From: Schmidtea nova
Taxonomy: Eukaryota
Direction of reading: 5' to 3'
Length of the DNA stretch: 51,809 nucleotides
Assembly (NCBI GenBank): GCA_044892505.1
Contig: CM097882.1
Coordinates: 202,442,192 to 202,494,000, forward strand
The notes beneath the pieces were generated by a model. It did no database searches, was not told where the DNA came from, and worked only from the letters and a program-made list of their open reading frames with translations. This document shows, one piece after another, positions 32,867 through 51,701 of this stretch (the first letter of the stretch is position 1; each line of letters begins with the position of its first letter). A program made the translations under genes and the position numbers.

Positions 32867-35524
32867 CTATACAACTATTACTGGTTTTCCTTCGTACAGT
32901 TCTTCGTCCTCGATCTGTACCCACATCTCTTCGTGTTTTGATCGTCTTCTCAGCTCTTCTCGTACTTCTTTTGGTAGTTTTTTGTTGTAATTCGTGACCT
33001 TTACGTCCGGCCATTTTACTGCTATGGTCTTATTTCTCATGCCATATCTCCAACATACTATCATGATCGTTATCAGCGGTATACACGCTATGAATACTCC
33101 CATGCTGATTAATCCCATTACTGTTTTTCCAATGCTCATTCTTGGAGTCTCACTTTGGTTTATCATCACGCCATATTGACCTTTCCATTCTGCTTCCCAT
33201 TGTTCGTATTGTTGTTGTCTCCGTCTGACTTCTTCGATCACTTTCTCGGGTTCCCATCTTTCTTGTTGATTTTGTAGTATTTCCTCCGTCTCTGTTTGTT
33301 CTCTTTTCTGACTCAATTCTCGGAATTCTAACTTGCGGGTTCCCCCTTTTATCGTTATGTTCCTTGGCGTGTAATAGGTTTCGCACCTTTCTTGTTGATT
33401 TCCTTGTGCGTCTACTTCTTCGATTGCACACACTTCGTATTCTGCGTTTGTTTTCAACCTCCTCATTTCTACCTCGATTATTTCCCTTTTGTCATTTGAT
33501 GTCTTTTGACAGTTTCGTGGAGACTCTCTCATACTGTTTGGCATTAATGTCCAACAGATTTCTAGGACCTTTTTATGGATCTTCCATATTATCAGAGTCG
33601 TTGATTCCGGTTCGTTTTTTATTGACGTCCCTTCTGTTGTCTGTTGAGTTCCTTGACTGTTGGTTGTCGTGGTTCTTCTTGACTTTCTTTTCCTCTGTCG
33701 ACTTCCTCCCATTTCGATCGTTCTTGTACCGTTAATTTGCTCTGGCGTCTTGTACAGTCTGCACTCCAGGCTTCTTTGTATTACTTCTCTTATTCTTCGG
33801 ATTACGCAAATTTCGTAAGCTTGTCCGACTTCGAATCCATTTAGTTGAAACGGGATTCCTCGTTCTCTCGTTTTACATTGCGGTATTATGTTGTTGGTCG
33901 ATACTCCGATGTATTTTCTCCAACACATCCCAATTGTTCTCCGACCAATGTTTTTTATCTCCACCGTTACTACTTCATTCGCAATCGTTTCTTGATCTTG
34001 TTTCTTTCTTTTTGGGAATTCAATTATCTCCTTTGCTTGGAACACTTTACACTCGCTTGTTCCTGGTCTGTTTCCGTTTGCTGCTTTTTCCATGAGACAT
34101 AGTTCACATTTTCTATCTGTCTCCATTTCAGTTATCTCTATTTCCTCATTTGTCTCCGCCTCTACTATTTCTCTTGTTTCGCTGATTCCAATTACCTCAT
34201 TGTTTCGTCCCCAACATCTTCCATTCGTTGTTCGTTGATCTTGGATGTTTACTAACGTCATCACGCTGATATCTATGTCCTCCATGATTCTCTTAATGAG
34301 GATTAATATTAATGCTACACATATCAATTCTGGTTGGAATGTTAATTTGCCCGCTGAATTTCTGGTTATTCTTTCTTTCTCTGTTCGGTTTCTGATTCCT
34401 TCTTCTGCTTCAGATTGATTCTTCCCTTTCTCTGATTCCACTTCTGTTCTTCTCGTTGTCTCTTCGCTTCTTTTTCCAATCCATTTCTGTATTTTCAGCG
34501 CTTCTGTTGCTTTATATAATTGACATGCAGTTACCTGAGGTGCTTTTGGTTCTCCTCTCTGCTTTATTGCGCATATTATGTATGACTTTTCTTTCTCTAA
34601 TCCTTTGATTTGGATGACGTCCCGCTTCAAATCTGACAATATACACTTCAGCGTATCGTTTTTCCTCATATTCTCTTTCCAGCATATTCTTTCGTATACT
34701 TCATTTCTTCTAATTATCTCTAGCGTGACGTATTGTTTCTTGGCTTCTCCTTGTCCGATGATTGTTATCAATATCGCAATACACAACATTTCCGGTCTCA
34801 AAAGTAGACTTCCTGTTCGTTTTCCATAGTTTGTACGTTCGTCTTTTGTTCCATTGTTTTCTCGTTCTTCGGCTTCCCCTTTCTTGTCTTTTTCCGTTGG
34901 CTTTGGTTCTTCTTGTCTTTCTTTTTCATTATCCTCTGTTCTTTTGTTGTCATTGTCTTCGTTGTTCTTTTCGTTGTTACTTTTGTCGTCGAAGTCTCTG
35001 TAACCACCCCCTGGTCCTTTGAAAATGTCGTCCTCGACATTAATTTCTTTAATCAGTCTTTCATACGCTTGAACCGCGAGTGTGCTAGACTCGAATTCAC
35101 GTATTTCCATCTCCTTGGATGGTTCCCTGTCTTCTAGTCTACTTTGCTTGATTGCTCCTTTGGCATTTGTCCATTCATTCACATATTTTCTGAACAAGTC
35201 TTTCCATCTTCCCGTTCGTTCGGGTTCCTTTGGATTGTTCGTGAACTTCAAATCTCTTCTCTTTAAGAATTCTTCTACTATCTCTGGCTTTTTGTGTCTT
35301 AACAACGCGCTTCTGATACACCAATTCTGATTCTGTTCCATATGGTCATTGATCTTGAATGCCGGTTCCTTGGTGATCGGATTCACCCATGTTAGCAATG
35401 CTCTTGTTTTCTCTATGTCGTGTATCATTACTGTCAGACTGAAATTCTTTACGTTATTTGCCAGGTATTCTATGTCCTCTTGTCTCTTGATGGACTTTAT
35501 GAACTTGATCATCTCGAAATTGTT
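32867..35524 (-). CDS. Polyprotein C-terminal segment: end of ankyrin repeats, acidic linker, signal-like segments, ~4 FN3-like repeats, TM, short tail
   Basis: In frame with 35525-43984 across one TAG (IDIAIQ*NNFEMIKF); repeats such as IKGLEKEKSYIICA, LNGFEVGQAYEICV, LKTNAEYEVCA; TM GLISMGVFIACIPLITIMIVCW. Confidence 0.75.
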   Translation of the reverse strand, partial: NNFEMIKFIKSIKRQEDIEYLANNVKNFSLTVMIHDIEKTRALLTWVNPITKEPAFKINDHMEQNQNWCIRSALLRHKKPEIVEEFLKRRDLKFTNNPKEPERTGRWKDLFRKYVNEWTNAKGAIKQSRLEDREPSKEMEIREFESSTLAVQAYERLIKEINVEDDIFKGPGGGYRDFDDKSNNEKNNEDNDNKRTEDNEKERQEEPKPTEKDKKGEAEERENNGTKDERTNYGKRTGSLLLRPEMLCIAILITIIGQGEAKKQYVTLEIIRRNEVYERICWKENMRKNDTLKCILSDLKRDVIQIKGLEKEKSYIICAIKQRGEPKAPQVTACQLYKATEALKIQKWIGKRSEETTRRTEVESEKGKNQSEAEEGIRNRTEKERITRNSAGKLTFQPELICVALILILIKRIMEDIDISVMTLVNIQDQRTTNGRCWGRNNEVIGISETREIVEAETNEEIEITEMETDRKCELCLMEKAANGNRPGTSECKVFQAKEIIEFPKRKKQDQETIANEVVTVEIKNIGRRTIGMCWRKYIGVSTNNIIPQCKTRERGIPFQLNGFEVGQAYEICVIRRIREVIQRSLECRLYKTPEQINGTRTIEMGGSRQRKRKSRRTTTTNSQGTQQTTEGTSIKNEPESTTLIIWKIHKKVLEICWTLMPNSMRESPRNCQKTSNDKREIIEVEMRRLKTNAEYEVCAIEEVDAQGNQQERCETYYTPRNITIKGGTRKLEFRELSQKREQTETEEILQNQQERWEPEKVIEEVRRRQQQYEQWEAEWKGQYGVMINQSETPRMSIGKTVMGLISMGVFIACIPLITIMIVCWRYGMRNKTIAVKWPDVKVTNYNKKLPKEVREELRRRSKHEEMWVQIEDEELYEGKPVIVV

Positions 35525-36790
35525 CTACTGTATTGCGATATCTATGATGGAATTATTCTTTCCATTTTTCCCTTCGATTTTTGCTCCTGCTTCGTATAAT
35601 TCGCTTAGCACTTTAAAGTTCGTCTTCTTTCTTGCTGCGATTATCATGATTGTATCTCCGTTATCATCAACCGTATTCATGTCCGCTTCGCATTTGACCA
35701 TTGCTTTCGTTATTTCTAGCACTTCGTTTTCTTTCTTTCGACGTAATGCCCAGTGTATCGGCAATCTCCCATCCTTTGATAATAGGAATGCCACTGGCAT
35801 TTGATTCTTGATTGTGTCCATATCACTCTCGTTATAATCTCCTTGTGCGTATCTGTGCACTTTCTCTGTAATCGCTCCTAGTATCTCTAGCGAGTTTTTA
35901 TTCTCTTTGAATTCCGATAATTTTTCCTGCGCTTTTACTACGATTGCGTCTAATCTCTCTTGATATTCCGCTTTTGCATTGAACAACACTGCTTTGTTTC
36001 TTATTCGCGTTTGCATCTGTTTCATTCGTTGGTCTTGATATACTGCTTGTCTGAAGAATTGTCCATACTTCAATGCTTCCATCAGCTCTTTATATCGCTT
36101 GCTTATTTCTTTGTGCTGCTTTTGGATGTCATAGAAATGTTCGAAGCTCATATCCGGATTCCATTGCTTATCACACCATTTCTTGATTAATCCGAATAAT
36201 TCTTTCTTTCTGTCTTCCAGCTTGTATTCTCTTGGGTTCTCACTAACCCGTAGCGTATCTCTCGCTATCAACACTGCAAGTGTTTTTGGATCGTATGTTA
36301 CTTCTAATAGATGTTTCAGTAACGCATTTTCTCCCCTTATGAACACTTCATTACAATCTATGACCCACGAATCTCCTTCTGGTCGTTTCCACTTTAGCAA
36401 TATTCTCCAGGTTTTACTATTTCTTACTCCGATTGCTTGTTTCATGATCGATCCTCTAGTTAGTTCATCGATTTCCCACGTGGCATTTTCCGTGATATAC
36501 TTCAGTATTCGGTGATTCGCTCTATCAATTGCATGATTCAAGAATGTTCGTCCCTCTTTATCTTTTGTCAACCAATTCGATCTGGTGTTTCCGAATAGCT
36601 TGATTATTTCATCTTTTCTTCCATGAATCGTCATCATCATAAGTGGAGTAATTCCTTCCCAATTCACTTTGTCAATTTCTCCTCCACCTTCGAGTATCAT
36701 CCCTACAATTTCCTTCACTTTTTCGTTTCCACTGTGCTTGATTGCATTGTGCAACGCGGTATTACCGTCTTTGTCTTGTAGATTCAATGT
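35450..36790 (-). CDS. Ankyrin-repeat region fused downstream of integrase
   Basis: QDKDGNTALHNA, NWEGITPLMM, KDKEGRTFLNHA, KDGRLPIHWA, DDNGDTIMIIAA, GKNNSIIDIA. Domain edges approximate. Confidence 0.9.
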
Positions 36791-37149
36791 CTGAGGGATC
36801 TCCTCTAGCAGCGTCCTTGTTATTGGATGTGCTGTTCTGTCTTTTGCATACTCCATTACATTCTTTCGAACTTCTGACAGTATATTGAAATCGTGCCACC
36901 ACCTCCATTCCGGTATAATTTCTCTGGTTTTCCTTGCCAGTTCTTTGATGTCTATTATCTCCCTTCGGTTGTCCTCTAGACTTGTTTGCGGCTTTTGTTG
37001 TACTCGCAACATACTGATTCTCGCCGTCTGTGATCTTGTCATTACCCGTTTCTCTGGTGATAGAGTTGCTGTCTTTGGTATTTTCCTGCATCGACATGCA
37101 TTCACGTATATTGGTCTTACCAATGGATTGTTCACCAATCGTACTCGCA

Positions 37150-40100
37150 CATTATTTTCGTTTACTGTTGTGATTTCATATGGCCCTTTGCCTGGTCGTT
37201 GGAGTTTTTTGACCGTACCGGGTATTATCTCTGGTGTTTCGATTATCACCCAATCTCCAACTTTTAAATCATGTGCTTTCACATTCTTTTTCTGATCATG
37301 CAGATCCTTGTAACTCTCTTGATAGAACTTGATGTTCAGTTCCGCCGTTTTCCAGATTTCTTGCATTCTTTCTTTGAACTTTGTAACGTAATCGTCAACC
37401 TCCATGTACTGTGATAATGGTGGTTGGTATTCTAAATCGATCGGTAAGTTGCAATCTCTTCCGTACATCAGTTGGAATGGACTTAGCTTTGTTGCCGCAT
37501 GTATTGACATTCTGTATGCCATTAAACACAAGTTTATATACTCGTCCCAGTCAGTCTGGTGTTTGCTGACGTAATTCGACAACATGCGTATTAATGTTCC
37601 ATTGAATCTTTCTGTTTGACCGTTCGTTTGTGGATGGTATGGGGATGTTCGTAATTTCGCAATTCGGAAGTAATTCGTAACTTCGTCTAATATTTCACTC
37701 ATGAAATTTGTTCCTTGATCCGTTAGGATTTTCTTTGGTGTTCCGTATCTGCAGCATATCTCTTCCACCAATATTCTCGCGACTGTTTTTGCCTTTTGAT
37801 CCGGTATTGCGTATGCTTCTGGGAACTTTGTTAGATAGTCCGTGACTACTAATATATACTGATTCCCCTTTAAACTTTCCGGCAATGGTCCAACTACATC
37901 CATTGCTATCGTCGCCATAGGTTCTGCAGGTATTGGCATTGGTTTTAGTGGTGTTTTCCACTTCGTTCCGACGTTCTTTCTTGTCGCACAGGTTAAGCAG
38001 TTCTTTATCCATTCTTTCACATCATCTTCCATGGTTGGCCAAAAATACTTTTGTCTCAATCTCCCGATTGTCTTTTTTGCTGACATATGTCCGCCTAATT
38101 TTCCGTCATGATATTGAGTCATGATTTCCTTTCGTCTGTTCGCAGGTAAGCACATTAATCTCCGTTCTCCATCTTGTATCAATAACCATCCTTTCTCCAC
38201 CACATATCTATGTTGATATTTCTGCATATGTTCGCGCAACGTTTGGTTCTTGCCGAATATTTCCATTTCCCTTTCTTTCAGATACTTGCTGATCATTCCC
38301 AACTCCTCATCTTCGAGTTGATCTTTCCTTAGTTCGCTGAAATCCAAATCTTCCGCTATTAATGCACATATTTTTAGAGCATTCAGGTTCACCAATTCTG
38401 GAAATGTAAACCTTGACATGCAATCCGCATTTGCATTTGCTTTTCCTGCTTTAAACTTTATGAATGGCGAGTATTCCTGCAACTGCATCGCCCAACGCAT
38501 CAATCTACTTGATGATTCTTTATGTTGACCTAACCATACCAATGGTTGATGATCCGTCGTGATATATATTTCATGACCCCACAATAAGTACTTGAAATGC
38601 TTGATTGCCAATATTATCGCATAGGCTTCTCTTTCCGTGACTGAGTAATTCTTTTCGTGCTTCCTGAACGTTCGACTGTAATATCCAATTACTCTTTCCT
38701 TGCCTTCTTCGTCAAATTGGCCTAGTACTGCTCCTGCTGCATATCCACTTGCGTCTGTTGCCAACAGAAATGGCTTCTTAAAGTCTGGATGGACCAATAT
38801 TGGTGCTGTAATCAGCTTATCTCGTAATGTTTCAAATGCTGCTTGCTGTTCTGGTCCCCATACAAACGACACGTCTTGTCTTACTAATTCTTGCATTGGC
38901 TTTGATATTCCGGCATAGTCCTTGATAAACTTTCGATAATATCCACACAATCCCAAAAATTCTTGTATTTGAGTCACTGTCTTTGGTGGTGGACATTCTT
39001 TAACTTTCTCGATATTCCTTGGATCTGGTTCTTTTCCTTTTGCCGATACAATGTGACCTAAGAATGTCACTTTTTCTTTTGCCCAATCGCACTTTGACGG
39101 CTTTAATTTCAGTTTCCATTGCCTTAATTTCACGAACACATTTCTGATGTCTTGCAAGTGATCCTCGAATGTTGCAGAGTAGATCAATAGATCGTCGATG
39201 TACACCATGCATTGTTTTATGCCATGTGTTACGAAATTCATGCATCTCTGGCATGATGCTGGCGCGTTTGTTAACCCAAACGGCATTTTCTTGAATTGGT
39301 ACAGATCTCGTCCGATTGTAAATGCTGTCTTCTCTTTATCCTCGTCTTTCATTTTGATCTGCCAATATCCACTTTTTAAATCCAGTGACGTGAAATAAGC
39401 TGCTCCTTGTAACGTCAATAACATTTCGTTTATGTCTGGCAGTGGGTACGTATCTCTTTTCGTAACTGCGTTCAATCGTCTGTAATCGATACAGAATCTC
39501 TGAGTTCCATCCTTCTTTTTCACCATCACCACTGGGAATTGCCAGGGTGAGCAACTAGGTTCGATGACCTCTGCATCTAACATCTTTTGTACCTCTTCTT
39601 CTGCCACTGCTTTTTGCGCTTCTGCCAATTTATATGGTCGTAATGCGATTGGCGTTTCGTCCGTCAACGGTATCGTATGTAATGTTACATCGCATGTTCC
39701 TAAATCCAGATCCGATGCTGCGAATATATCTTTATACTCCATCAACAGTTTCTGTAGCCGTTCTTTTTGTCGTTCGTCTAACAACACACTGTCGATTTTC
39801 CATGGTAATTCGCCTTTGCCTTTCTCATTCTTGTCTGGTATCTCGATTTCGGACATGGGTGTTAATTTACCCAAATTCTCATTCTCGTATATTATCTTGT
39901 CCTCTTCGTCGAAGTTTACCAGATTAATCGGTATTTCTCCTTCTTGGTTTATCGTGACCAATTCTCTTGCCATTGGTAATTCTTTCTTTGCTTCGAACTT
40001 CTTACTGGGTTCGAATATCATATCTCCTTTTATTGTCGAATCGATCTTTACATAACACATCATTTCATGTCTCGCTGGCACTACTATTTGTTCCGCACTT

Positions 40101-40480
40101 GCCACTTTAACTTTCATCCTGCAGATTTTTCCTGTCCTATCTTTTAACTTCATTGCTCCTAGATCAATTATGATTTCCTTGAACAGGTCTGGCATCAGGT
40201 CAGTTCCAATAATACATGGTACACTCAGCGATGGTATTACAGCGATGTACGTGTTGATCTCTGCACCTCGATGCTTAATTTTTACAAACCATCTTCCGGC
40301 TACTTCTACTGTCTCTTGACTGCACGCGATTACATGTACGTTCGTCTTCTCGATTTCTCCTTGATTTTTCTCTGGTATATAGTTGATGTCGATTGCCGAA
40401 ATATTCGCGCCTGTATCGATCATTGCTTCAATTTCTCTGCCATTTATTTCTACGGTTGTTGTTAAGATCGGTCCCATATT
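37150..40480 (-). CDS. pol: Pol domains: aspartyl protease, RT, RNase H, integrase (within ORF 35525-43984)
   Basis: PR AMIDTGAN (~40415); RT RFCIDYRRLN, LDLKSGYWQ, MPFGLTNAP, VYIDD (39191-39205); RH ATDASG...TDHQPL; IN HHCC finger, MDVVGP / TDQGTNF / NGQTERFN, GPY motif. Domain edges approximate. Confidence 0.97.
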
Positions 40481-40699
40481 TGTGGACATAACCGCTATCG
40501 TGTGCGTGTCTTCTAACGAGTTTACACTTCCACCTCGTTTTACTTTGCATCCTTCGGGAATTATCGGGTATATACTTGTCATCGGCATCATCTGCATCAT
40601 ATTCGGCTTCGCTTTGTATATTGGTTCGTTATACATTGACTGAGGTGGAGCGCTGTATCTCCAATTCTCAACTGCACTCTTTTCGTTATACTGTGGAAT

Positions 40700-42850
40700 C
40701 TGGTTTATATTCGCTTGTCCTCCTCGATCGTCATCGTCATCGTCGTCGTTGCTTGAATCATCTTGTGTTCGATATCCCTTCACTCTTTCCCATAATCCTT
40801 TCCTTTCTTTCTTGAGTTGTCGCCTTGCTTGTTCGTCTTGCATTATCTTTTTGAATTTTCTTCCGACATCTTCATTTGTTCCTTTCATTTTTGCAAGTAT
40901 TTTCAACAATCTCTTTATTCGATGAATGTCTTTTGAGTGTCCGTGTAACACCATCGTTTTCGCAAGGAATGGTAAAAACCCTACTACCATCTTCCAATTC
41001 ACTTTCTTTTCTCTTTTGTAGATATCGAAACACGCTAACATTTGCGTTATTATCACTCTGACGATTTGTATTATCAATATAACACCCAGTATTCCAGCCA
41101 TCATTTGTCCAAATATCAGGAATCTTCCCCACATTGCCTTCATCATATTTTCTGTGGCTTTCTTGAAATGTGCCGGTGACAACAACAGTTCGTAATTCGG
41201 TCCTTCTCGATAATTCGTTCCTCCCGTTATTGTTACGATATTTGACAGTAATGCTTCTCTTCTTGCCGGAAATAGTATATTCTGTCTTGCTGCTTCCAGA
41301 TCTTTTGGACTATAGATTCCGTTGTTTGAGACATCTACGTCACTGAACTGTCTATCCTTCGATAACTGCATTAGCTCAAATTCTCTTGGTGCTAATACTT
41401 CTGTTCTTCCTGGGAACATAACCCATTTGCCATCTGGCTTCTGATAAAGCGGTCCGTACGCGTTACTACAGTTGAATGGATTTGGTTCAAACCCTGGTGG
41501 ATTGATGATTCTCGTCACCGGTTGAACGTATCGTACTTTTCCTTTGTAATCGATTTCTAGTTCGTTTGTACATTGTCCAGGTTTCAACTGCGTTGTTGCT
41601 GCTAGCGATGCATGTGTCTTTTCGCAAATGTATACGTACATTGCCTCTCCAACCACTCTTCCGAAATGTCCTTCTCTCAGTGGTAATAACGGCATCGCGC
41701 TATCTGGATTCGTAATCGCTACGGCCAACTTTGTCTTCAATATTTCCCGATTCAGTATACAATCGTTGTTTATCAGATCATAGTACACTTTTTGCAATGA
41801 GGCTTGTCCTCTATGGAATAAGAAATCCATTTTATTATTCACATACAAGTGTAGCTTGATATCCATGGTGTCGATCTTGGGTTTCGCATTCGGCACTTCT
41901 TGCTTTGACACGTATATTCCTGGATAGTTCGTTTCGTATACTGTTGTACTGCACTTAAGGGTTGCTTTCCCTTTTATGAATCTCATGCCCACATCCTGAT
42001 TTGTGGTTATCAACACTGTTGGTGTGGTTCTCATTTCTATCCGTTTCTCTCTATGATCCGGTTTCAATTGTCTTTTATTCTCTAAAGCCTCTTTGAGATG
42101 TTTTGCTCTAGCTTTGTCATCATCATCTTCTTCTTGGAATGTTTTCCCTTGAATTTCGTCAAACTTTGCTCCTTGTAGCAGTTGTAATTGACATTCGTTC
42201 ACTTTTGGTTTGTATACCAATGTTGACATTCCCGTTTGACACATGCTTCTGTCAATTTTACACATGGATAACGTTTTCATTTCTCCTGTTGTTGGTTCGA
42301 AGAATGCTTCGTAACTTTTCAGTTCAACTATGTACGTATCCATTACTACTAAGTTGGTTGCGGGTACTCCGAATATTGGGTAGGTTTCTCCTTGACAATA
42401 CCCTTCTCCTCCCGTAATCCGTCCTGCTACATAATACGTCTGCTGTAACATCATTCCTGGCTTTCCTTTTATCTTGATTTTATCTCTCGTTGTTACTTCT
42501 CCATGTTTGAACAATGCTTCGCAGTCTTCTCCTTGCAACACAATTGGTTCTCTTTCGGTTCCTGGCATGACAATTGCTGAATAATGTCCTCTACCGCAAT
42601 AGAATGCGAATCTCGTCTTTTGCACTTTGCATTCATTCACCATTGTCTTTATTAGTTCTGCCTCTTGATACACGTGATACCATTGTTCCTTTTTGATCTC
42701 TTTCAATTTTACTGGAGTTGCATCTTTGCACTGCTCCGTACCTCTCAATGAGTACTTTTCTCCTAACTTCATTTGATCACAGTCAAATACTTCAAATGTT
42801 GTTACACCCTCTGTGCTTAACAACCATACTATCATCATCATGATTATCGA
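40700..42850 (-). CDS. env: Envelope glycoprotein, chuvirus (Jingchuvirales)-like class III fusion type, between Gag and Pol
   Basis: Signal-like NSIIMMMIVWLLS then FEVFDC...YSLRGTEQC; CKVQKTRFAFYCGRGHYS; YVNNKMDFL...VYYDLINNDCILNREIL...GEAMYVYIC; TM FLIFGQMMAGILGVILIIQIVRVII. Family assignment comes from my recollection of the motif pattern, not from a search. Confidence 0.8.
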
Positions 42851-42964
42851 GTTCAAATTCAACGTCGATCTTCCGTTTCCTTGCATCGTTTGTCTATTCT
42901 CCATTTCTCTCAATACTCCTTCAAGTTTCTTTCTCATCACGTTTGACCCTTCTTTTGTCTGGTT

Positions 42965-43360
42965 CTCTTTTATGAACTTTTCCCATCCTCCTTTTCTGAG
43001 GATATACGGTTCAATTTCTTTCTCGATAATCATCGCCGTATTTTTAATATGTCTTCCCATCGGGCTTGACTTCGGACTTTCTCGGCTTAGCGTTAACAAA
43101 TTGTATATCGTATACGAGATTGCTACTAGATATTTGCTGTCCGTTTCTGCTCCGTTTAGTAGCCTTTTTACCAACGTCGTGGTTCCTTGCCAATCTAGAT
43201 GATTCGATTTTGTTTTCGCCTTGATCAGTTCTGGCATAATCGGTGCTATCGCGTTGTGTAGCATCCTTGCCTTCGTACCGGGTTCGTTTATCCGCCACAG
43301 ATTCTTTAATTCTGGGTCAATTATCGCTAACACATCCATTATCGTTTTGGTGAGCCATTC
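42965..43360 (-). CDS. Divergent Bcl-2-like domain (within polyprotein)
   Basis: BH2-like IEPYILRKGGWEKFIKE (compare Bcl-xL LEPWIQENGGWDTFVE); BH1-position helix LVKRLLNGAETDSKYLVAISY lacks NWGR. Confidence 0.6.
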
Positions 43361-43987
43361 CTCTCCTTGGCAGACTTGATTCTCCTCTTTTCCTCTGATT
43401 TCTGCGATTTTGTCTAATTTCTTCAAGCAAATCTCCCATTGCTCTTGTCTCCTTTCTTCCCTTGTCTTTGGGATTGCTGTTGCTGGATCTATCTTTGGTC
43501 TTCCTCTTGGTCGTTTTTCCATTCCAGTTCCGGTTTCTACAAATCTCGTTACTCTTCCCGTTTCTTCCGTAACATCTCTTCCTTCGTTTGCTCGTTGTTC
43601 TAACCATCTTTCCATTTCTTGAGTAAACTGTGGTTGTTCTTGCTCGTCTTCTGAATCGTTTACCATTTCTATGACTACCTCCTGTTCCACTCCTTGATCG
43701 TCGATTTCTGCTGGTGACGTTATTGGCATCTCTATTATTCTGTCAAAAATATTCGCCGTTGGTTTTTGAGTCAACTTTGTTAATTCTTCTATCGCCTCAT
43801 CACTGTCTGTTAGTATCTCATCGACGTCATACGCTTCTGGCGGTGTTCTCTCTCTCGTTTTTATTGGTGTTGTCCTTGCTTGTCCTGAACTTGTTCCTGG
43901 GGTCATTGTTGACTTCATCGGACTTGGTGTACTCATGCTTCCTTTCGCTTTCTTTTCCTCTTTAAACTTCAGTGGTTGACCCACTAT

Positions 43988-46576
43988 CTATGCCACGGTT
44001 AACGTATTCATTAGATCCAATTGCACTGGTGTCAGCCAGATTTCCAAATTGTTATCCAACGATCGTCCTTGATGTTGCAGGTGGAATGGTAGTTCGTACA
44101 TCAGTTTCTCTTTAACACTTTTCACTTTTTCCGTTAGCATCACCCAAAACTCTTCTTTTCTTTGATTCGGATACATTATCCTCAAATGTATTTTCTGTGG
44201 CGTTTCTTCCGCAAACTCTTTGTTTCTCCACTTTTTTATTGCATCGTCTAGTTGCTCTGGACACCACTCGTTAACTCTCTTGTATTCTGCTATCGCTTTA
44301 GCTACTTTTCTCAAGTTCGTCATGTCTTCTCCATTTGAGATTATGAATTGTGCTAAGCCTTTTATTGTTTGTCTTTTTCCCCGAGTATTTCCTCTCAATA
44401 GCTCGATCAATTCACTCGTTTTCTGTTTCTCCAATTCTGCCCATATTACTGCAGTTTCTGGTCCGTCTAAGTCCGTTGGTAATATCCTCCTTGTTACCAT
44501 ACATATCCGTTTCGTATTCCGTTCATATCTGTCTTCTCCTTCCGGATCTTCTTCATATACGCCTCTTTTCACTTTCCAACATTTCTCTTTGTTATCCCAT
44601 TGCTTCTCTACTGGCGTCAATCGTCGTCTGTTAAGATCCAATTCTCCCAATATTGTCTCCCATTCTGGCTTCATCTGCCAGTTCCGATAGATTTCTACTA
44701 TCTGCCTCAACTTGCGCATAACGTCCTCTTGTCGTTTCTTTCTCCTTTCCTCATCTCTTGGTGTTGCTCTTGGCACATCATCCATTCTGATGACATGTAT
44801 TGTTTGATAATTATCCCATATGCCAATTTTATACGCTCGTCTTTCGTCACGTTCATTCAGTAGGTGTTCTTTGTATTTTATCGCAATGTCATCCTCGAAT
44901 TCATCTTCCCGTTCTCGTTGTAATATCGTCTCATTGATGACATCTACTATTTCTCCCACTTTACTATCTGGTATTACCTCAATTTGTCTTGTCTCTTCAT
45001 TCGGCAATCTCACGGTAATCTTCAGATCTGATACCTCTCCTCGTTTAAACATTTCTTTCCCCATCTTGGCGATTAACTTATCCGTTTTGAAATTTGAGTG
45101 TCTCGTTTGACTGGTATCTCGTATGTTCTCGATACACTGTTTCAAATTCTCATACTCGCTTTTCGTCAATTCCTTTCGATGTTTCTTGATTTGTTGAATG
45201 ATCTGTTCTATCATCGTATTCAAATTCTCCGCCAAGATTCTCTCTTTTGCCTCTATCAACTGAGGTTTTATTCTCATCTCGTAACACGTATTCGCTTCTT
45301 TGACGATTCCTTGTAAGTTCTCTTCCTTTTTGGTGTTGCATATTGATAACGTCGTTATTTCTCCTGGCCAGATGCCTGTGTCTATCATATGCGTGCCTTT
45401 TCTCACCAATCCGTTTTGTGAGTATATGAACTTGTCTTTGTACGAGCTTCCCAATCTGTCCTCAACCCATCGATATATTCCATCCGTCATTGGGTTCTTT
45501 ATCCAGATTCTCGGTGAACACTCGTTTATCCATATTTGTATTACGTATTCGTTCAGTGGCTCTTTCAATAACTTCTCTATGAATTCTTGTATTACCCTCA
45601 CTTCTCCTTCTTGTAACCACTCTTTATACTTCGTCTGCCATACTGCTCGTATAAACTTTCGATATCGTTTCGTGTCGATAAACTCCTCGTTATGGATTAC
45701 TTCCAACGCGTTATCCATCAGCTTCTGAATTTCGTCTTCCGTTACTGACAATGTTTCTATTGTCTCGACTACTTCCATCTTTTTGTCCTCGTTTTCCGGT
45801 TCCTTTAGCATGTCTCCTGCCAGACTGCTAACTTCGCTGTCGTCTTCTTCATCTGACAACTCTTGTCTTGGGTGTCTCAGCATCCCAATATGTGCGGTTG
45901 GTCTCGTTTCGTTTTTGCTAACTTCTTGTATTAGTTCATTCTCGTTTCCTGTTACTTCAGCTTTTCCCATTCTTTTCTCCAATTCGTCTATTTCTTCCAA
46001 CCGTCTTCGTCTTATTTTTCCCTTGAATATTCGACTGATCCGAGTTTGATGTTTCACTGGTGGTGGGATTTTCTCCGGTTCCACCTCTCTGATGATCATC
46101 ACGTTTATTTTTGTCTCCGTTACTCCCATATCTTCCCATATATCAGTCATCTTTAACTTCACTTCCGGTAAATCTTCTGTTTGTAGGAATGCTTCTCTGG
46201 GCAGTTTCATCACTCCCGGCATCATCTCATTTACTTTATTGAACAATCTTCCCACTTCTTCTTTTACATCGTATTTGAATCGCCACACGTGATCATTCGG
46301 CATGATCACCAACATTCCTCTTTGTTTGATTCTCACTTCCTCTTCTTGATTCGTTTCTTTTTCTGTTTCTTTTTCTTTTTCTACTTCTTCATCCTTTTGA
46401 TTCTGCTCTGCGGCTTCTACTTCCTGATTCACTTCTTCTTGTTTCTGCTCTTCGTTTCTTTTCTCTTTAATTTCTAACTCGTCTGACTCATCCTGCTGCT
46501 TCTCTTCCATCATTGCTCGCATCATGTTGATCCTTGGATTTCCCTTTTTTAACTGTTGTAATCGTTGTTGCCTGAC
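43988..46576 (-). CDS. Polyprotein segment with three ubiquitin-like (beta-grasp) domains
   Basis: Ubl-like stretches GMLVIMPNDHVWRFKY... (~46320-46085), LKITVRLPNEETRQIEVIPDSKVGEI...TIHVIR (~45030-44785), IHLRIMYPNQRKEEFWV...NTLTV (~44195-43991); in frame with both neighbours. Confidence 0.6.
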   Translation of the reverse strand, partial: VRQQRLQQLKKGNPRINMMRAMMEEKQQDESDELEIKEKRNEEQKQEEVNQEVEAAEQNQKDEEVEKEKETEKETNQEEEVRIKQRGMLVIMPNDHVWRFKYDVKEEVGRLFNKVNEMMPGVMKLPREAFLQTEDLPEVKLKMTDIWEDMGVTETKINVMIIREVEPEKIPPPVKHQTRISRIFKGKIRRRRLEEIDELEKRMGKAEVTGNENELIQEVSKNETRPTAHIGMLRHPRQELSDEEDDSEVSSLAGDMLKEPENEDKKMEVVETIETLSVTEDEIQKLMDNALEVIHNEEFIDTKRYRKFIRAVWQTKYKEWLQEGEVRVIQEFIEKLLKEPLNEYVIQIWINECSPRIWIKNPMTDGIYRWVEDRLGSSYKDKFIYSQNGLVRKGTHMIDTGIWPGEITTLSICNTKKEENLQGIVKEANTCYEMRIKPQLIEAKERILAENLNTMIEQIIQQIKKHRKELTKSEYENLKQCIENIRDTSQTRHSNFKTDKLIAKMGKEMFKRGEVSDLKITVRLPNEETRQIEVIPDSKVGEIVDVINETILQREREDEFEDDIAIKYKEHLLNERDERRAYKIGIWDNYQTIHVIRMDDVPRATPRDEERRKKRQEDVMRKLRQIVEIYRNWQMKPEWETILGELDLNRRRLTPVEKQWDNKEKCWKVKRGVYEEDPEGEDRYERNTKRICMVTRRILPTDLDGPETAVIWAELEKQKTSELIELLRGNTRGKRQTIKGLAQFIISNGEDMTNLRKVAKAIAEYKRVNEWCPEQLDDAIKKWRNKEFAEETPQKIHLRIMYPNQRKEEFWVMLTEKVKSVKEKLMYELPFHLQHQGRSLDNNLEIWLTPVQLDLMNTLTVA

Positions 46577-48262
46577 TTATTCTTCTTCTCGTCGTACTCT
46601 AGCCCATTCTTGATTATGTTTCTGTTGACTCTCTCTGTTTTCTCTTTCGGCCTCAGCTTCTATTAACTGGATCATGTTTATCTTTGGTTGAGCAGCTTGC
46701 TGGCTTCCCTTTGCCATGCTTTCGATTATCTCGTGTAATCTGGATACCTCCTGTCTCAACTTAGCTTCTTTCATACTAGCTTCGTTTGCACTGCTGTTTG
46801 GGTTGTTCCGTTGTTGACCTTGATTCCCATAGCTTGGTCGATTCCCGTAATTCGGTCTATTTCCACTGTTTGACCAACTTCTCTGTTGATTACAGTCTCT
46901 TGACATGTGTCCGGTTTTCCCACATGTGTAACACGTTTTCCCATAACATCGATTTTCTGAGTGACCCTTTTGTCCACACAGTTTACAGGCTACATTCTGA
47001 AAACACTCTTGTTGCCAATGTCCGTTTTTCCCACACGTCTGACATTGCCTATTCTGCCTGTCATTGTAACTATTTCCTCCATTCGGGTTCACCGTGATAT
47101 ATCCGTTATTTTTCCTCGCTGGCGGTTCTTTGAACAATCTCTGCGAATGGGGAATACTTTGATTCATGTTTCTTTTTCCTTGTTCTTCATCTTCTGTCGT
47201 TTTTCCCATTACCGCCGTAATTCTCATGTCATTCATTGCCATATGCAATTCGAATAGGTTGGCTGCTTCCAACGCTTCATCTACTGTTTTACATCCTTTG
47301 CATCCCACTTGTGCTCTGATGTCAGGTCTCCTGAGACCTCGTACGAATAACGCTGTCATCAATTCTTCGTCTACTGGGCTTCCTCTATTGAATGCCAGTT
47401 TCGCCAACTTTCTTAATTCACTTGCGTACACTGCATTTGACTCGTTTCTCCTCTGTTTTCTTGCTGAGAACTCATCGAACGCTTCGTTCAACACTTTATT
47501 TATCCCAAACGTCTGTTGGAAGAACTCCTTGATTGCTTCCCACGTTCTGGGTGGATTACTTCCCGATCTCTTCTCAATATACAGATCCAATGCGCTATCT
47601 TTCAAGTATAGCGGGATTCGATTCGCTAACGTTTCTGCACTCCATCCGCATATATCCACGAATATGCCAAATTCCTTTAGAAACGTATCCAATCTACTGG
47701 CGTCTCCATTGAATGGTTCGCCCTTGAATTTTTCTCTTAGATCCTCTCTGTGATCACTCATCCCGATTCCACTATCTTGGAATACTGTACTAGTTTTCTT
47801 TACTTCTAGTTCACCACTTGTTTCTGAATTCGACTCTTCTTCTTCACCACTCTCTGTTTCGTTATCTCTTGATTCGCTTCTTGTTCTGTTTTCCCTGACT
47901 AGTTCACTGTCTATCGTCTCTACTTCGTTTTGTACTTCTAGATCTTCTGGGGTTTCTTCTTGGTTCTCTTTGTTACTCGAATTATCGCGGATCTCTACTT
48001 GTTTGTTCTTTTGTTGCTTAGGCTTGTTACCTGTTCTTGTCCTTTTTGCTGCTTTTCTTTCTGCTTCCGTTAAGATTGGTATTATACCTGATCTTGTTTC
48101 TCGTCCCTCAATTTTGTCTATTCCTCAACTGCTTATATTCTCAACCGATTTTCTACTTCGCTTTTGCTTTGCTTCTTCTTTGATTTGTTTCCTTTGATTG
48201 CTCTGACTGCTAGATTGCCTTGAATTGCTTGATTGATTTGTTTCCTTAAAACAAATAATCAC
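46577..48262 (-). CDS. gag: Gag (Ty3-type capsid plus three CCHC knuckles) with an in-frame acidic/basic N-terminal extension
   Basis: PFNGDASRLDTFL...PLYLKDSALDLY capsid; CQTCGKNGHWQQEC, CKLCGQKGHSENRC, CYTCGKTGHMSRDC; frame stays open upstream of ATG 47761 to 48262 apart from TGA at 48125-48127. Confidence 0.9.
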
Positions 48263-48634
48263 TTACACGATACGTCCCCGTTATCGTGTTTCTCGTCCCT
48301 CTCACGGGTGTAGTCATAATTCATGAAGATCCCCATTTTTCCCATTTCCCTTGATTTTACGTCTATTTAAATTATCTATGCAGTCGCATCAATTATCTAT
48401 TCTTTATCAAATACACCAATTACTTTTCCCCAGTTTCCCAATTACTTTGTCGCTCAGCGCTCTTATTATCCCCTTTACTTTTCTCAGGCTTCTCTGGCTC
48501 TGAGTTCTAATTTCCCCTTATCTGTTGACTACTCTGTTTCTCGACTACTCACTTTATCTCTTATTCACACTACGTTTACTACTTCATTTCAATTCTCATC
48601 TCTACTCACCTTTAATTCAGCTGACCTCTCTCGT

Positions 48635-49102
48635 TGGCCTGCTGGGCTTTCCAGTCAGCACCTTTAATCTCACCTTTTATCTCGATCTTTGTTTCTCTCA
48701 ACTTCACTCATTATCTCATTAGCCTGCTGGGTTTTCCAGTCAGCGCTTTTAATCTCCCCTTTTACTTCTGCTTCATTATTCTCGACCTCAATTGTCGTTT
48801 CATTAGCCTGCTGGGTTTTCCAGTCAGCGCTCTTATTACTCTCCATTTATCTCTTTACTGTCGACTTTTAACTGCTCTTTACTCCGATGATCATCACTTT
48901 TGACCTGCTGGGTCTTCCAGTCAGCGTCCTCAATTTTACCACTTTATTATCACTCCCTTTTATTCTCTCGATCTTTCCTGATCGTTATCATTGACCTGCT
49001 AGGTTTTCTAGCTAGCGTCTTTACCACTTTACCTGTCTTAACAAACCGGTTTCATTTTACTCCCGTCGAATCTCATGGTCTGCTGGGTTTTCCAGTCAGC
49101 AC
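48635..49102 (-). repeat. Array of six conserved ~27-nt hairpin motifs (GCUGACUGGAAAACCCAGCAGG), ~85-95 bp period
   Basis: Copies near 48635, 48721, 48805, 48901, 48992 (degenerate) and 49076; spacers far more diverged than the motif. Confidence 0.85.
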
Positions 49103-49420
49103 CCTTCACTTACTCACTTTACTTTGCTACTCCTCCTTGTATGCATACTTTAACATCATTAGGCCACATAATCAGCTTTACTCGCATTTATCAATACCCA
49201 GGTGCGCACCTTCAACTCTCTCGTTATTAATTCGGTTTCTTTCAACCCTTATTCCTCATTATTCATTTTCACTATTCATCATTTATCCTCATTATCAATT
49301 ATTCGTCTCTATTATCGCTTATTGATCTTCACTATCCGGATAGTTTTATGCTTTATTTAGTCCTCATCTGCCTCACTTCGTCGTCTTTCTCGTGGGCTTT
49401 TACTCAATATTTTATTTCGA

Positions 49421-50015
49421 ACGAGAACTATGCTCACTGCTGAGAACTATGCTCACTAACGAGAACTATGCTCAATGACGAGAACTATGCTCAATGACGA
49501 GAACTATGCTCACTGACGAGAACTATGCTCACTGACGAGAACTATGCTCACTGACGAGAACTATGCTCAATGACGAGAACTATGCTCAATGACGAGAACT
49601 ATGCTCACTGACGAGAACTATGCTCAATGACGAGAACTATGCTCACTGGCAAAACATGGTTGTTATGAGGGTTTTGCCTACTGATGGAAACTCTTTGCTC
49701 CGGGGGCTATGCTCCCCGATGAGAACTATGCTCACTGATGGTGACTACAGGAATTATGTTTCCTGATGAGAACTAAGCTCACTACGATGATTATGTTTAT
49801 TTCTGAGAACTACGCTCACTGATGAGGACTATGTTCGCTGGTCTTGTGTTTATTACTGAGAACTCTGCTCACTACGAGAACTATGCTCACTATGGTGTTG
49901 TGTTTTATGACGAGACCTACGCTCACTAGGATGTTATGTTTTATGACGAGACCTATGCTCACTATGATGTTATTTTTATGACGAGACCTATGCTCACTAT
50001 GAGACCTATGCTCAC
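49421..50015. repeat. 19-bp tandem repeat (GACGAGAACTATGCTCAMT), ~12 clean units to ~49650, then degenerate expanded units
   Basis: Directly visible; internal GAG-N7-CTC dyad. Confidence 0.9.
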
Positions 50016-50709: not shown

Positions 50710-51168
50710 TTACAAGTACACTGTTATTTTCTCGGATACGGGAAGGTTGCACATAGGACATCGTTCGTTTATTTTACAGTCATTACAGAATCGAAAATGC
50801 CCACACGGCAACAACATTATCTGTATCTTATTCATTTCACAGATATAACACGTCAGGTACTGTTTCGTATATTCGGTTGTTAGTCTTGTCCACTCATCGT
50901 GTTTTGTTGTTAACTGTTGCTCTAGCCTGTGGCACTCGATATTCATTTCAGGGTTGTTTAATCTTTCTCTGTACCATTTGTATCGCGTTGTTGTATCCAC
51001 TGTTATCTTATTCTCGCTTATGCTCATCATCATTTCGGCTCTTTCTGTGTTGTTTGTCGGTTCGTGGTATCCTTCTACCTCGAGTCGTCTTAACTTCCTC
51101 ATTATTGTCTCCACTGTTTCGTTGTTTGTTTCGAAAAACGTTTGCATTTCTTTTATTTTGTTCTCCAT
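50710..51168 (-). CDS. 152-aa protein: coiled coil plus C-terminal IAP/MDM2-type RING (C3HC4), no BIR
   Basis: CYICEMNKIQIMLLPCGHFRFCNDCKINERCPMCNLPVSEKITVYL-stop; acceptor TTCATTCAG 3 nt before ATG; AATAAA at 50700-50705. Confidence 0.85.
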   Translation of the reverse strand: MENKIKEMQTFFETNNETVETIMRKLRRLEVEGYHEPTNNTERAEMMMSISENKITVDTTTRYKWYRERLNNPEMNIECHRLEQQLTTKHDEWTRLTTEYTKQYLTCYICEMNKIQIMLLPCGHFRFCNDCKINERCPMCNLPVSEKITVYL

Positions 51169-51701
51169 CCCCTGAATGAATTACCGTTAATTTCTGTCGA
51201 TCTTTATTTATTATTTATTATTTCTATTCTATGGTAGCCCTACTGTTCGCTTTCTGTTGTTCTGTTTTGCGTCGTTACTTGCGTATCCCCCCGTGTTCTT
51301 GAATGTCGCCCCGACATGATCATTGCTAGTTGCTCACACTCATACCATTTTCATGCACGCTTTTCAGCATACTTTTACCTCACGTCATGCATACTTTTCA
51401 TCACTTTTCGTACTGTTATTCCACATATTATTCCTCATACTTCATTCATCCCCATACTTACATTCCATTATCATTCATACTTTCATTCTCATGCATACTT
51501 TCATCACGTTCATCAATCTCATTATTTTACACTCATACTTTTATTTATTATTTTTCAACCCGATTCATTCTTGCTTCAGGACCCTCAAACCCTCTATTAT
51601 TTACTTTACTTTTCCTCGCTAAATTCAATTCCATCCCGGTTCAGGCGCTCTAACACTGTCCGCAGATATCGAATTCAATTTTTCCCACAAAGATCGATTT
51701 A

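What the first reader, a model, noticed from the sequence alone, without database searches (positions are those of the whole stretch)
42810..43360. Bcl-2-like domain placed so that the Env signal peptide could serve as its tail anchor
Seen: BH2-like GGWEKF followed about 35-40 residues later by the hydrophobic Env signal segment. Established: Bcl-2 proteins are anchored by a C-terminal hydrophobic helix, and viral Bcl-2s often lose BH1 NWGR. Inference: after signal-peptidase cleavage the domain stays membrane-anchored facing the cytosol, made one-to-one with Env.
Basis: partly seen in the sequence, partly recalled or inferred. Interest (0 to 1): 0.72.

Follow-up and report, generated by a model that had tools for sequence, protein, structure and literature searches.

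The report
Retrotransposon Bcl-2 beside Env signal peptide
A giant virus-like jumping gene carries a worn but real relative of the cell-death regulator Bcl-2 just ahead of its envelope protein, an arrangement already published for flatworm "Burro" elements; the envelope's likely signal peptide would tether that domain to the endoplasmic reticulum, but a lasting anchor and an anti-death role are untested.

Summary
On the minus strand a Bcl-2-like domain (BH2 GGWEKF, 42974-42991) sits 38 residues before a hydrophobic segment that opens Env, inside a Burro-type Gag-Env-Pol polyprotein (this copy has three premature stops). Pfam misses this copy, but sister families in the genome pass the Bcl-2 cut-off and a profile of these elements finds Bcl-xL (E 1e-7). 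The predicted fold is too poor to judge. The domain, and Env directly behind it, are in print (PMC6431247), and this scan raised the anchor idea twice before on other DNA. The segment looks like Env's own cleavable signal: predicted cleavage site kept in 11 of 12 lineages, short and only moderately hydrophobic here, 33-59 residues from BH2 against 14-23 in free Bcl-2 ORFs. Topology would leave the Bcl-2 piece tethered to the ER, not mitochondria, and not as a true tail-anchored protein. Whether it stays is open (about 40%). New here: a recently mobile Env-less, Pol-less derivative of a sister family keeps Gag, Bcl-2 and the hydrophobic segment in frame while the Env start decays. BH1 is degenerate, so BH3 binding is doubtful.

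The parts
42962..43366 (-). Bcl-2-like domain, residues about 208-342 of the 35525..43987 frame; predicted eight helices
   Evidence: Profile homology; helix pattern from a low-confidence model; dN/dS 0.03-0.12 where dS is measurable between A/B-type subfamilies
43130..43153 (-). Stretch at the BH1 position (GAETDSKY); NWGR replaced by TDSK
   Evidence: Alignments A2, A6 and the HMM alignment to Bcl-xL
42974..42991 (-). BH2-like GGWEKF
   Evidence: the Trp is invariant in 40 of 40 rows of A5
42863..42961 (-). Linker with a predicted amphipathic helix; the least conserved part (32-41% identity between family A and B-type subfamilies); no match to the recurring protease-site-like motif
42797..42862 (-). 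Predicted internal signal peptide of Env (L376-T397, core 380-390), predicted cleavage VTT|FEVFDC
   Evidence: Hydropathy; small residue at -1 in 11 of 12 lineages; PF24664 match starts at profile position 3-7 inside this segment in 8 relatives
41048..42796 (-). Env: Monjiviricetes-type fusion glycoprotein ectodomain (14 Cys, furin-like REKR at residue 646) and TM helix (residues 962-980, 41048-41104)
   Evidence: PF24664 E 1e-71
37631..40459 (-). Pol in the same frame: protease, RT, RNase H, integrase; ankyrin repeats follow
   Evidence: Pfam
44495..44509 (-). Nearest upstream match to the recurring protease-site-like motif (RICMV); candidate start of the piece that would carry the ubiquitin-like domain, Bcl-2 and the signal
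   Evidence: Motif scan, kept in family B as RVCMV; no cut is shown
43991..44194 (-). Probable ubiquitin/SUMO-like domain upstream of Bcl-2
   Evidence: By eye and by position only in the window (no Pfam hit); weak PF00240 hits at this place in relatives (E 0.005-0.03); described for Burro in PMC6431247
32867..48124 (-). One polyprotein frame (Gag to C-terminal TM, about 5,085 codons), broken in this copy by stops at 46577, 43988 and 35525
   Evidence: Four abutting ORFs in one frame; 26 of the 150 scored genome matches lie in stop-free frames of 5,076-5,114 aa

Best explanation
This is the Bcl-2-like cargo domain of a Burro-type giant Ty3/gypsy polyprotein, and the hydrophobic segment behind it is most likely Env's own internal, cleavable signal peptide, which would leave the upstream piece tethered to the cytosolic face of the ER membrane. 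Steps. (1) Shown: Gag, Bcl-2-like domain, hydrophobic segment, Env and Pol share one frame, and the domain is under purifying selection. (2) Predicted: the segment inserts co-translationally with its N side in the cytosol and threads Env into the lumen; signal peptidase cuts before FEVFDC. (3) Inferred: everything upstream stays on the membrane by that segment until something cuts it; the element's protease would trim it from the Gag side (nearest candidate site about 550 residues upstream), giving a ubiquitin-like + Bcl-2 + signal piece on the ER. (4) Untested: whether signal peptide peptidase or the element's protease then frees it (I put lasting retention at about 40%), and whether it blocks apoptosis (about 30%, given the lost BH1 Trp and Gly). 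It would work like HCV core held by the E1 signal, not like a post-translationally inserted tail-anchored Bcl-2.
For: Layout Bcl-2 - 33-59 aa - hydrophobic segment - x(3)[FY]DC in all 12 lineages measured (7 in this genome, 5 outside). The first 30 of 802 Env-start matches in the genome all have the Bcl-2 stretch upstream (29 in frame, 1 frameshifted). BH2-to-Env stretch free of stops in 94 of 98 fetched loci that hold it in one frame (overlapping fetches counted twice). PF24664 begins in the segment. Net positive charge on the N side, +1 to +4. No protease-like motif between BH2 and the signal in families A and B, while one follows integrase in both. An Env-less, Pol-less derivative of family E keeps Gag, Bcl-2 and the segment in frame (5,988-nt in-frame deletion joining lumen side to lumen side); 17 of 150 rows lie in frames of 981-1,001 aa; the 5 of 5 copies examined have 99-100% identical terminal repeats; between its two subfamilies the h-region shows a median 5 changes in 16 codons, none hydrophobic-to-polar, while 5 of 7 Env-start residues changed. 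Precedents: HCV core (PMC5712332, passage), foamy virus Env leader (PMC7828637, passages).
Against: The segment is short and weak in the window's family (KD19 1.55, relatives 1.45-1.97; 1.03 in P0010), as expected of a plain signal peptide. Linker length and sequence vary freely. The motif scan misses cuts that must exist (none at the protease N-terminus) and the strict motif finds nothing in families C-E, so its absence from the linker is weak. In families C-E a second internal signal follows integrase, which cannot stay anchored, so lying upstream of a signal does not by itself mean anchoring. The HCV precedent ends in release by signal peptide peptidase. P0002 (Gag-UBL-Bcl-2, 997 aa) ends 20 residues after GGW without any tail, though it may be cut short. 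The Env-less family may keep the segment for Gag's sake, its counts are small, NTN codons tend to stay hydrophobic, and BH2 has decayed in most of its young copies (RYW, GHW). No Env-less derivative of the window's own family was seen among the 150 scored matches. Fold not confirmed.
Confidence: 0.55

Rival explanations
1. The segment is only Env's signal peptide. The Bcl-2 domain is released to the cytosol by signal peptide peptidase or by a protease cut in the linker, and acts as a soluble factor or reaches mitochondria on its own.
For: Short h-region, variable linker, polar residues in several h-regions; integrase must be freed from a similar internal signal in families C-E; HCV core is released this way; P0002 has no tail.
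Against: No motif match in the linker of A and B; h-region kept hydrophobic without Env; families C-G have TM-strength segments (KD19 2.1-2.4).
Confidence: 0.3
2. The tether matters for assembly: it holds the uncut Gag precursor next to Env on the ER membrane, and the Bcl-2 fold serves as a matrix-like spacer or as a non-apoptotic signalling decoy (as some poxviral Bcl-2-fold proteins do; recalled).
For: Gag has no separate frame, so it is tethered by the same segment; the Env-less family keeps Gag and the segment while BH2 decays; BH1 Trp and Gly are lost in all retroelement rows of A6; Burro1's tested anti-apoptotic cargo is reported to be its IAP (PMC13465017 passage citing Lee et al. 2026).
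Against: BH2 and the helix-5/6 pattern remain close enough to hit Bcl-xL and are conserved in all Env-bearing lineages; viral Bcl-2s without recognisable BH motifs can still be anti-apoptotic (DPV022; PMC11209288 passage).
Confidence: 0.25
3. The GGW match is chance or a decayed relic with no function.
For: No Pfam, PDB or Atlas hit for the window sequence alone; unbiased structure search gives nothing above background.
Against: Shuffle controls, sister families over the Pfam cut-off, dN/dS 0.03-0.12.
Confidence: 0.04

Closest known systems
Burro / GYPSM1 giant gypsy-like LTR retrotransposons of planarians (PMC6431247, section 7 read whole; Grohme 2018 and Lee 2026 not held)
   Same: One polyprotein of about 5,000 aa with Gag, SUMO-like domain, BCL2-like motif, in-frame mononegavirus-like Env between BCL2 and protease, Pol and ankyrin repeats; very many copies.
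   Different: That section does not discuss the Env signal peptide, membrane topology, 3,000-aa sister families or Env-less derivatives. Direct sequence comparison with Burro1 was not possible.
HCV core held by the E1 internal signal sequence (PMC5712332, passage); foamy virus Env leader peptide (PMC7828637, passages)
   Same: A cytosolic domain joined to a glycoprotein's signal segment in type II orientation.
   Different: The cytosolic domain here is a Bcl-2 homologue behind Gag. HCV core is released by signal peptide peptidase; the foamy leader is cut by furin and stays in particles. Which applies here is unknown.
Cellular and viral Bcl-2 proteins with a C-terminal anchor (Bcl-xL, Bcl-2, Bok, vaccinia F1L; PMC2172731 abstract; PMC11209288 passages)
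   Same: BH2 motif, helix 5-6 pattern, a hydrophobic segment C-terminal to the domain.
   Different: BH1 NWGR degenerate; segment 33-59 residues from BH2 instead of 14-23 in the two free ORFs measured; not at the end of the primary product; the window's segment lacks the two downstream basic residues that target Bcl-xL to mitochondria.

Membership tests
Bcl-2 family (PF00452) | Pfam gathering score 31.4 bits | tested here: not met
   Window domain: no hit at E<=1. Sister families C and D pass (33.4, 35.1 bits).
Bcl-2 family (PF00452) | Profile homology to solved Bcl-2 proteins | tested here: met
   Profile of 8 retroelement domains (window first): the 60 rows shown of 190 are all Bcl-xL/Bcl-2, best E 9e-8; window linked to C-G by hhalign 82%, E 1e-5, over the C-terminal 66 columns and by shuffles.
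Bcl-2 family (PF00452) | Eight-helix Bcl-2 bundle | tested here: inconclusive
   pLDDT 44.8 and 46.7. Foldseek: all 40 listed PDB rows are Bcl-2 family but E>=0.27, TM about 0.3; top two viral rows are Bcl-2s, E 0.14 and 0.59; VIA-align: no Z>=8, Bcl-xL at rank 32, Z 5.4, rmsd 3.5, 75 aligned.
Bcl-2 family (PF00452) | BH2 motif (W-x3-GGW-x2-F type) | tested here: met
   EPYILRKGGWEKF, aligned to Bcl-xL EPWIQENGGWDTF through the profile.
Bcl-2 family (PF00452) | BH1 NWGR | tested here: not met
   TDSK in the window; Trp and Gly absent in all retroelement rows, basic residue mostly kept.
Bcl-2 family (PF00452) | Binds BH3 helices and blocks Bax/Bak-type killing | not testable with these tools
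   Needs binding and rescue assays.
Tail-anchored proteins | Single TM segment at the C-terminus of the primary product, inserted after translation | tested here: not met
   More than 2,400 residues follow in frame, with further TM segments.
Cleavable internal signal peptide of Env | Basic n side, hydrophobic core, small residues at -3/-1, placed at the glycoprotein N-terminus | tested here: met
   the -3/-1 rule is recalled, no dedicated predictor was on hand, and the site was placed by alignment to the [FY]DC motif.
Cleavable internal signal peptide of Env | Actual translocation and cleavage | not testable with these tools
   Needs in vitro translocation.
Burro giant gypsy elements | Single frame Gag - BCL2 - Env - PR - RT - RH - IN - ankyrin, about 5,000 aa | tested here: met
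Burro giant gypsy elements | LTR-bounded, over 25 kb | tested here: inconclusive
   An 89-nt 98% direct repeat 26,138 nt apart (25583 and 51721) runs off the window's end; ends not followed.
Burro giant gypsy elements | BIR/IAP cargo | tested here: inconclusive
   RING ORF at 50710-51180 (E 3e-9); BIR not looked for.
Burro giant gypsy elements | Sequence identity to Burro1-4 | not testable with these tools
   No named Burro sequence was available.

The most novel reading that the evidence does not exclude
Burro-type elements replaced the captured Bcl-2's own tail with the Env signal peptide, which stays as a lasting ER anchor, giving a membrane-bound death or stress regulator made with every Env; and short Env-less, Pol-less parasites of these elements spread while keeping exactly this Gag-Bcl-2-anchor unit.
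Probability: 0.2. Interest if true: 0.7.

Novelty: new member of a known kind. Interest (0 to 1): 0.38.

Why it matters
If the anchor is kept, one short helix would do two jobs, Env translocation and placing a Bcl-2 homologue on the ER, which would be a new way for a retroelement to dose and locate an anti-death protein, alongside the IAP already reported for Burro1. It gives a direct test of whether Burro's second apoptosis-type cargo is active. If it is not kept, this is one more copy of a published domain.

Tried and rejected
Single-sequence searches for the window domain gave nothing: Pfam, PDB, Atlas, three word-index protein searches. The Atlas gave Bcl-2 clusters at 0.91-0.92 for sister family D, with recognition under its mark, so weak. 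The second-look structural alignment could not be queued. A complex of the domain with a BH3-like stretch of L022 gave no verdict. No RNA holder was listed, so expression and splicing were not examined. Branch dN/dS for the Env-less family was too noisy and mosaic to use; Env values for L146 are void (frameshift). In one search, 21 of 24 Env-less copies were kept (3 did not give an intact in-frame junction) and 2 intermediates were left out of the two-subfamily comparison. Rejected: mitochondrial tail anchor (insertion would be co-translational; no basic residues after the core in this family); a family-wide stop between Bcl-2 and signal (seen in L031/L055 only among the family D copies listed). 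Literature: 9 searches showed no paper on the signal-as-anchor idea or on Env-less Burro derivatives; Grohme 2018 and Lee 2026 were not held, and they or their supplements may cover either point.

Full report
What is there. The finding lies on the minus strand in a 2,820-aa frame (35525..43987) that abuts three more ORFs in the same frame. Together they make about 5,085 codons, broken in this copy by stops at 46577, 43988 and 35525. Pfam gives Gag with zinc knuckles, a Monjiviricetes-type fusion glycoprotein, protease, RT, RNase H, integrase and ankyrins in that order. In the own genome 150 of 1,021 candidates were scored; 26 lie in stop-free frames of 5,076-5,114 aa. This matches the published description of planarian Burro elements, which names a BCL2-like motif and an in-frame Env between BCL2 and the protease (PMC6431247, section 7 read whole). 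The host group is inferred from that match only.

Is the domain a Bcl-2 homologue? Yes by profile, not yet by fold. Alone it finds nothing. A Pfam Bcl-2 search of the genome turned up sister element families with the same gene order; two pass the curated cut-off (33.4 and 35.1 bits against 31.4). The window domain is tied to them by hhalign (82%, E 1e-5) and by an HMM that lacks it (19.9 bits, 0 of 1,949 scored shuffles). An HMM of 8 free-standing Bcl-2 ORFs scores it 9.7 bits, above all 1,936 scored shuffles. The joint profile of 8 element domains finds Bcl-xL at E 9e-8, and all 60 rows shown are Bcl-2 family. Among 1.84 billion representatives it finds 10 proteins: five with Bcl-2 - signal - Env, one Gag-UBL-Bcl-2, three fragments and one free Bcl-2. 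An HMM from nine of these scores the window 49.3 bits against at most 10.9 for shuffles, with the caveat that they were found with a profile holding the window. dN/dS between A/B-type subfamilies is 0.03-0.12 where measurable. The models are poor (pLDDT 44.8, 46.7). Foldseek lists only Bcl-2 chains in its 40 PDB rows but at E 0.27 or worse, the top two viral rows are Bcl-2s at E 0.14 and 0.59, and the unbiased aligner finds nothing above background. BH2 is kept; BH1 has lost Trp and Gly in all retroelement rows. That this Gly matters for BH3 binding is recalled; that motif-poor viral Bcl-2s can still work is from PMC11209288 (passages).

Is the segment Env's signal? It has the marks of one. 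In 8 relatives the PF24664 match begins at profile position 3-7 inside it. Aligned on the [FY]DC motif, 11 of 12 lineages have a small residue at -1 (VTT in the window, ATA in its closest relatives); the rule itself is recalled and no dedicated predictor was on hand. The N side is basic. The first 30 of 802 Env-start matches all have the Bcl-2 stretch upstream.

Would it anchor the domain? If the signal works from inside the polyprotein, everything upstream is cytosolic and is held by the segment after signal peptidase cuts on the luminal side. This is inference, with precedents in HCV core (PMC5712332, one passage) and the foamy virus leader (PMC7828637, passages). It differs from a tail anchor: insertion would be co-translational into the ER, and the window's segment lacks the downstream basic residues that send Bcl-xL to mitochondria (PMC2172731, abstract). 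For retention: following a lead from note e1-9378568 I scanned for a recurring protease-site-like motif and found none between BH2 and the signal in families A and B, the nearest lying about 550 residues upstream, while one follows integrase. Against: the motif misses cuts that must occur and its strict form is absent from C-E; integrase in C-E also sits before an internal signal and must be freed; the segment is weak in this family (KD19 1.55 against 2.55 for the Env TM); the distance from BH2 is 33-59 residues against 14 and 23 in two free Bcl-2 ORFs; the linker is the least conserved part; HCV core is released by signal peptide peptidase; and P0002 ends without a tail, perhaps because it is cut short.

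A natural experiment. A derivative of family E has lost 5,988 nt in frame, from seven residues after the predicted cleavage site to just before the polyprotein's last TM helix. It keeps Gag, the ubiquitin-like domain, Bcl-2 and the segment in one frame of 981-1,001 aa (17 of 150 rows, one with a stop in the match) and 5 of 5 copies examined have 99-100% identical terminal repeats. The YDC start of Env has decayed, whereas the h-region differs between two subfamilies by a median 5 residues in 16, none hydrophobic-to-polar (64 pairs, not independent). So the segment persists without Env, which fits a second job. It does not say whose: Gag is tethered too, counts are small, and BH2 has drifted to RYW or GHW in most young copies. 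It concerns a sister family; none was seen for the window's family.

What is known. The domain and its place are in print. Burro1's tested anti-apoptotic cargo is reported as its IAP (seen only as passages of PMC13465017 citing Lee et al. 2026). PMC8532177 passages show BURRO1 as an expressed, active element. Nine searches showed nothing on the anchor idea or on Env-less derivatives, but Grohme 2018 and Lee 2026 could not be read. This scan noted the same anchor idea twice in another genome (e1-8073723, e1-8074266), which is no independent support; a word search found no note on the Env-less family.

Verdict. Observation confirmed; interpretation partly supported. Real Bcl-2 homologue about 95%; internal Env signal about 85%; lasting anchor about 40%; BH3-type anti-apoptotic action about 30%. 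New member of a known kind, interest 0.38; the Env-less derivative and the cheap topology test are what lift it above a plain repeat.

Noticed in passing
L125-L129, L106-L124, L088-L105 (own genome): Non-autonomous LTR family of about 6-6.6 kb: one 981-1,001-aa frame (Gag, zinc knuckle, ubiquitin-like, Bcl-2, signal, short loop, C-terminal TM) plus a 636-aa ORF without Pfam hit; Env, protease, RT and integrase removed by a 5,988-nt in-frame deletion at a QN microhomology; terminal repeats 99-100% identical; 5' parts are mosaics of families D and E.
   Followed up: partly
L085-L087: Three compact (about 3,000 aa) Env-bearing single-frame gypsy families with the same Bcl-2 - signal - Env order but no ankyrins; a second internal signal, a small domain and a TM follow integrase.
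   Followed up: partly
L021, L026, L028, L032, L040, L046, L049: Free-standing short Bcl-2 ORFs; L021 lies beside an rve integrase ORF and L040 beside a TBP ORF (Pfam), suggesting Polinton/adintovirus-like DNA elements. L026, L028 and L040 are the closest of 8 such ORFs to every retroelement Bcl-2, and the best viral fold row is an adintovirus Bcl2 (E 0.14): a possible donor, not tested on a tree.
   Followed up: partly
window 32867-35524 (-): C-terminal part of the polyprotein has two further signal-like segments, repeated small Cys-bearing domains and a final TM; no Pfam family.
   Followed up: no
window 50710-51180 (-): RING-finger ORF upstream of gag, as expected for the IAP-type cargo of Burro.
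   Followed up: partly
window 49383-49974 and 48602-49023: 19-nt tandem array and three or four 65-nt repeats between the RING ORF and gag.
   Followed up: no
window 41453-42796 against L051: Env is 97% identical between families A and B (dS 0.48) while the flanking Bcl-2 region is 70-74% identical with saturated dS, hinting at Env exchange between families.
   Followed up: no
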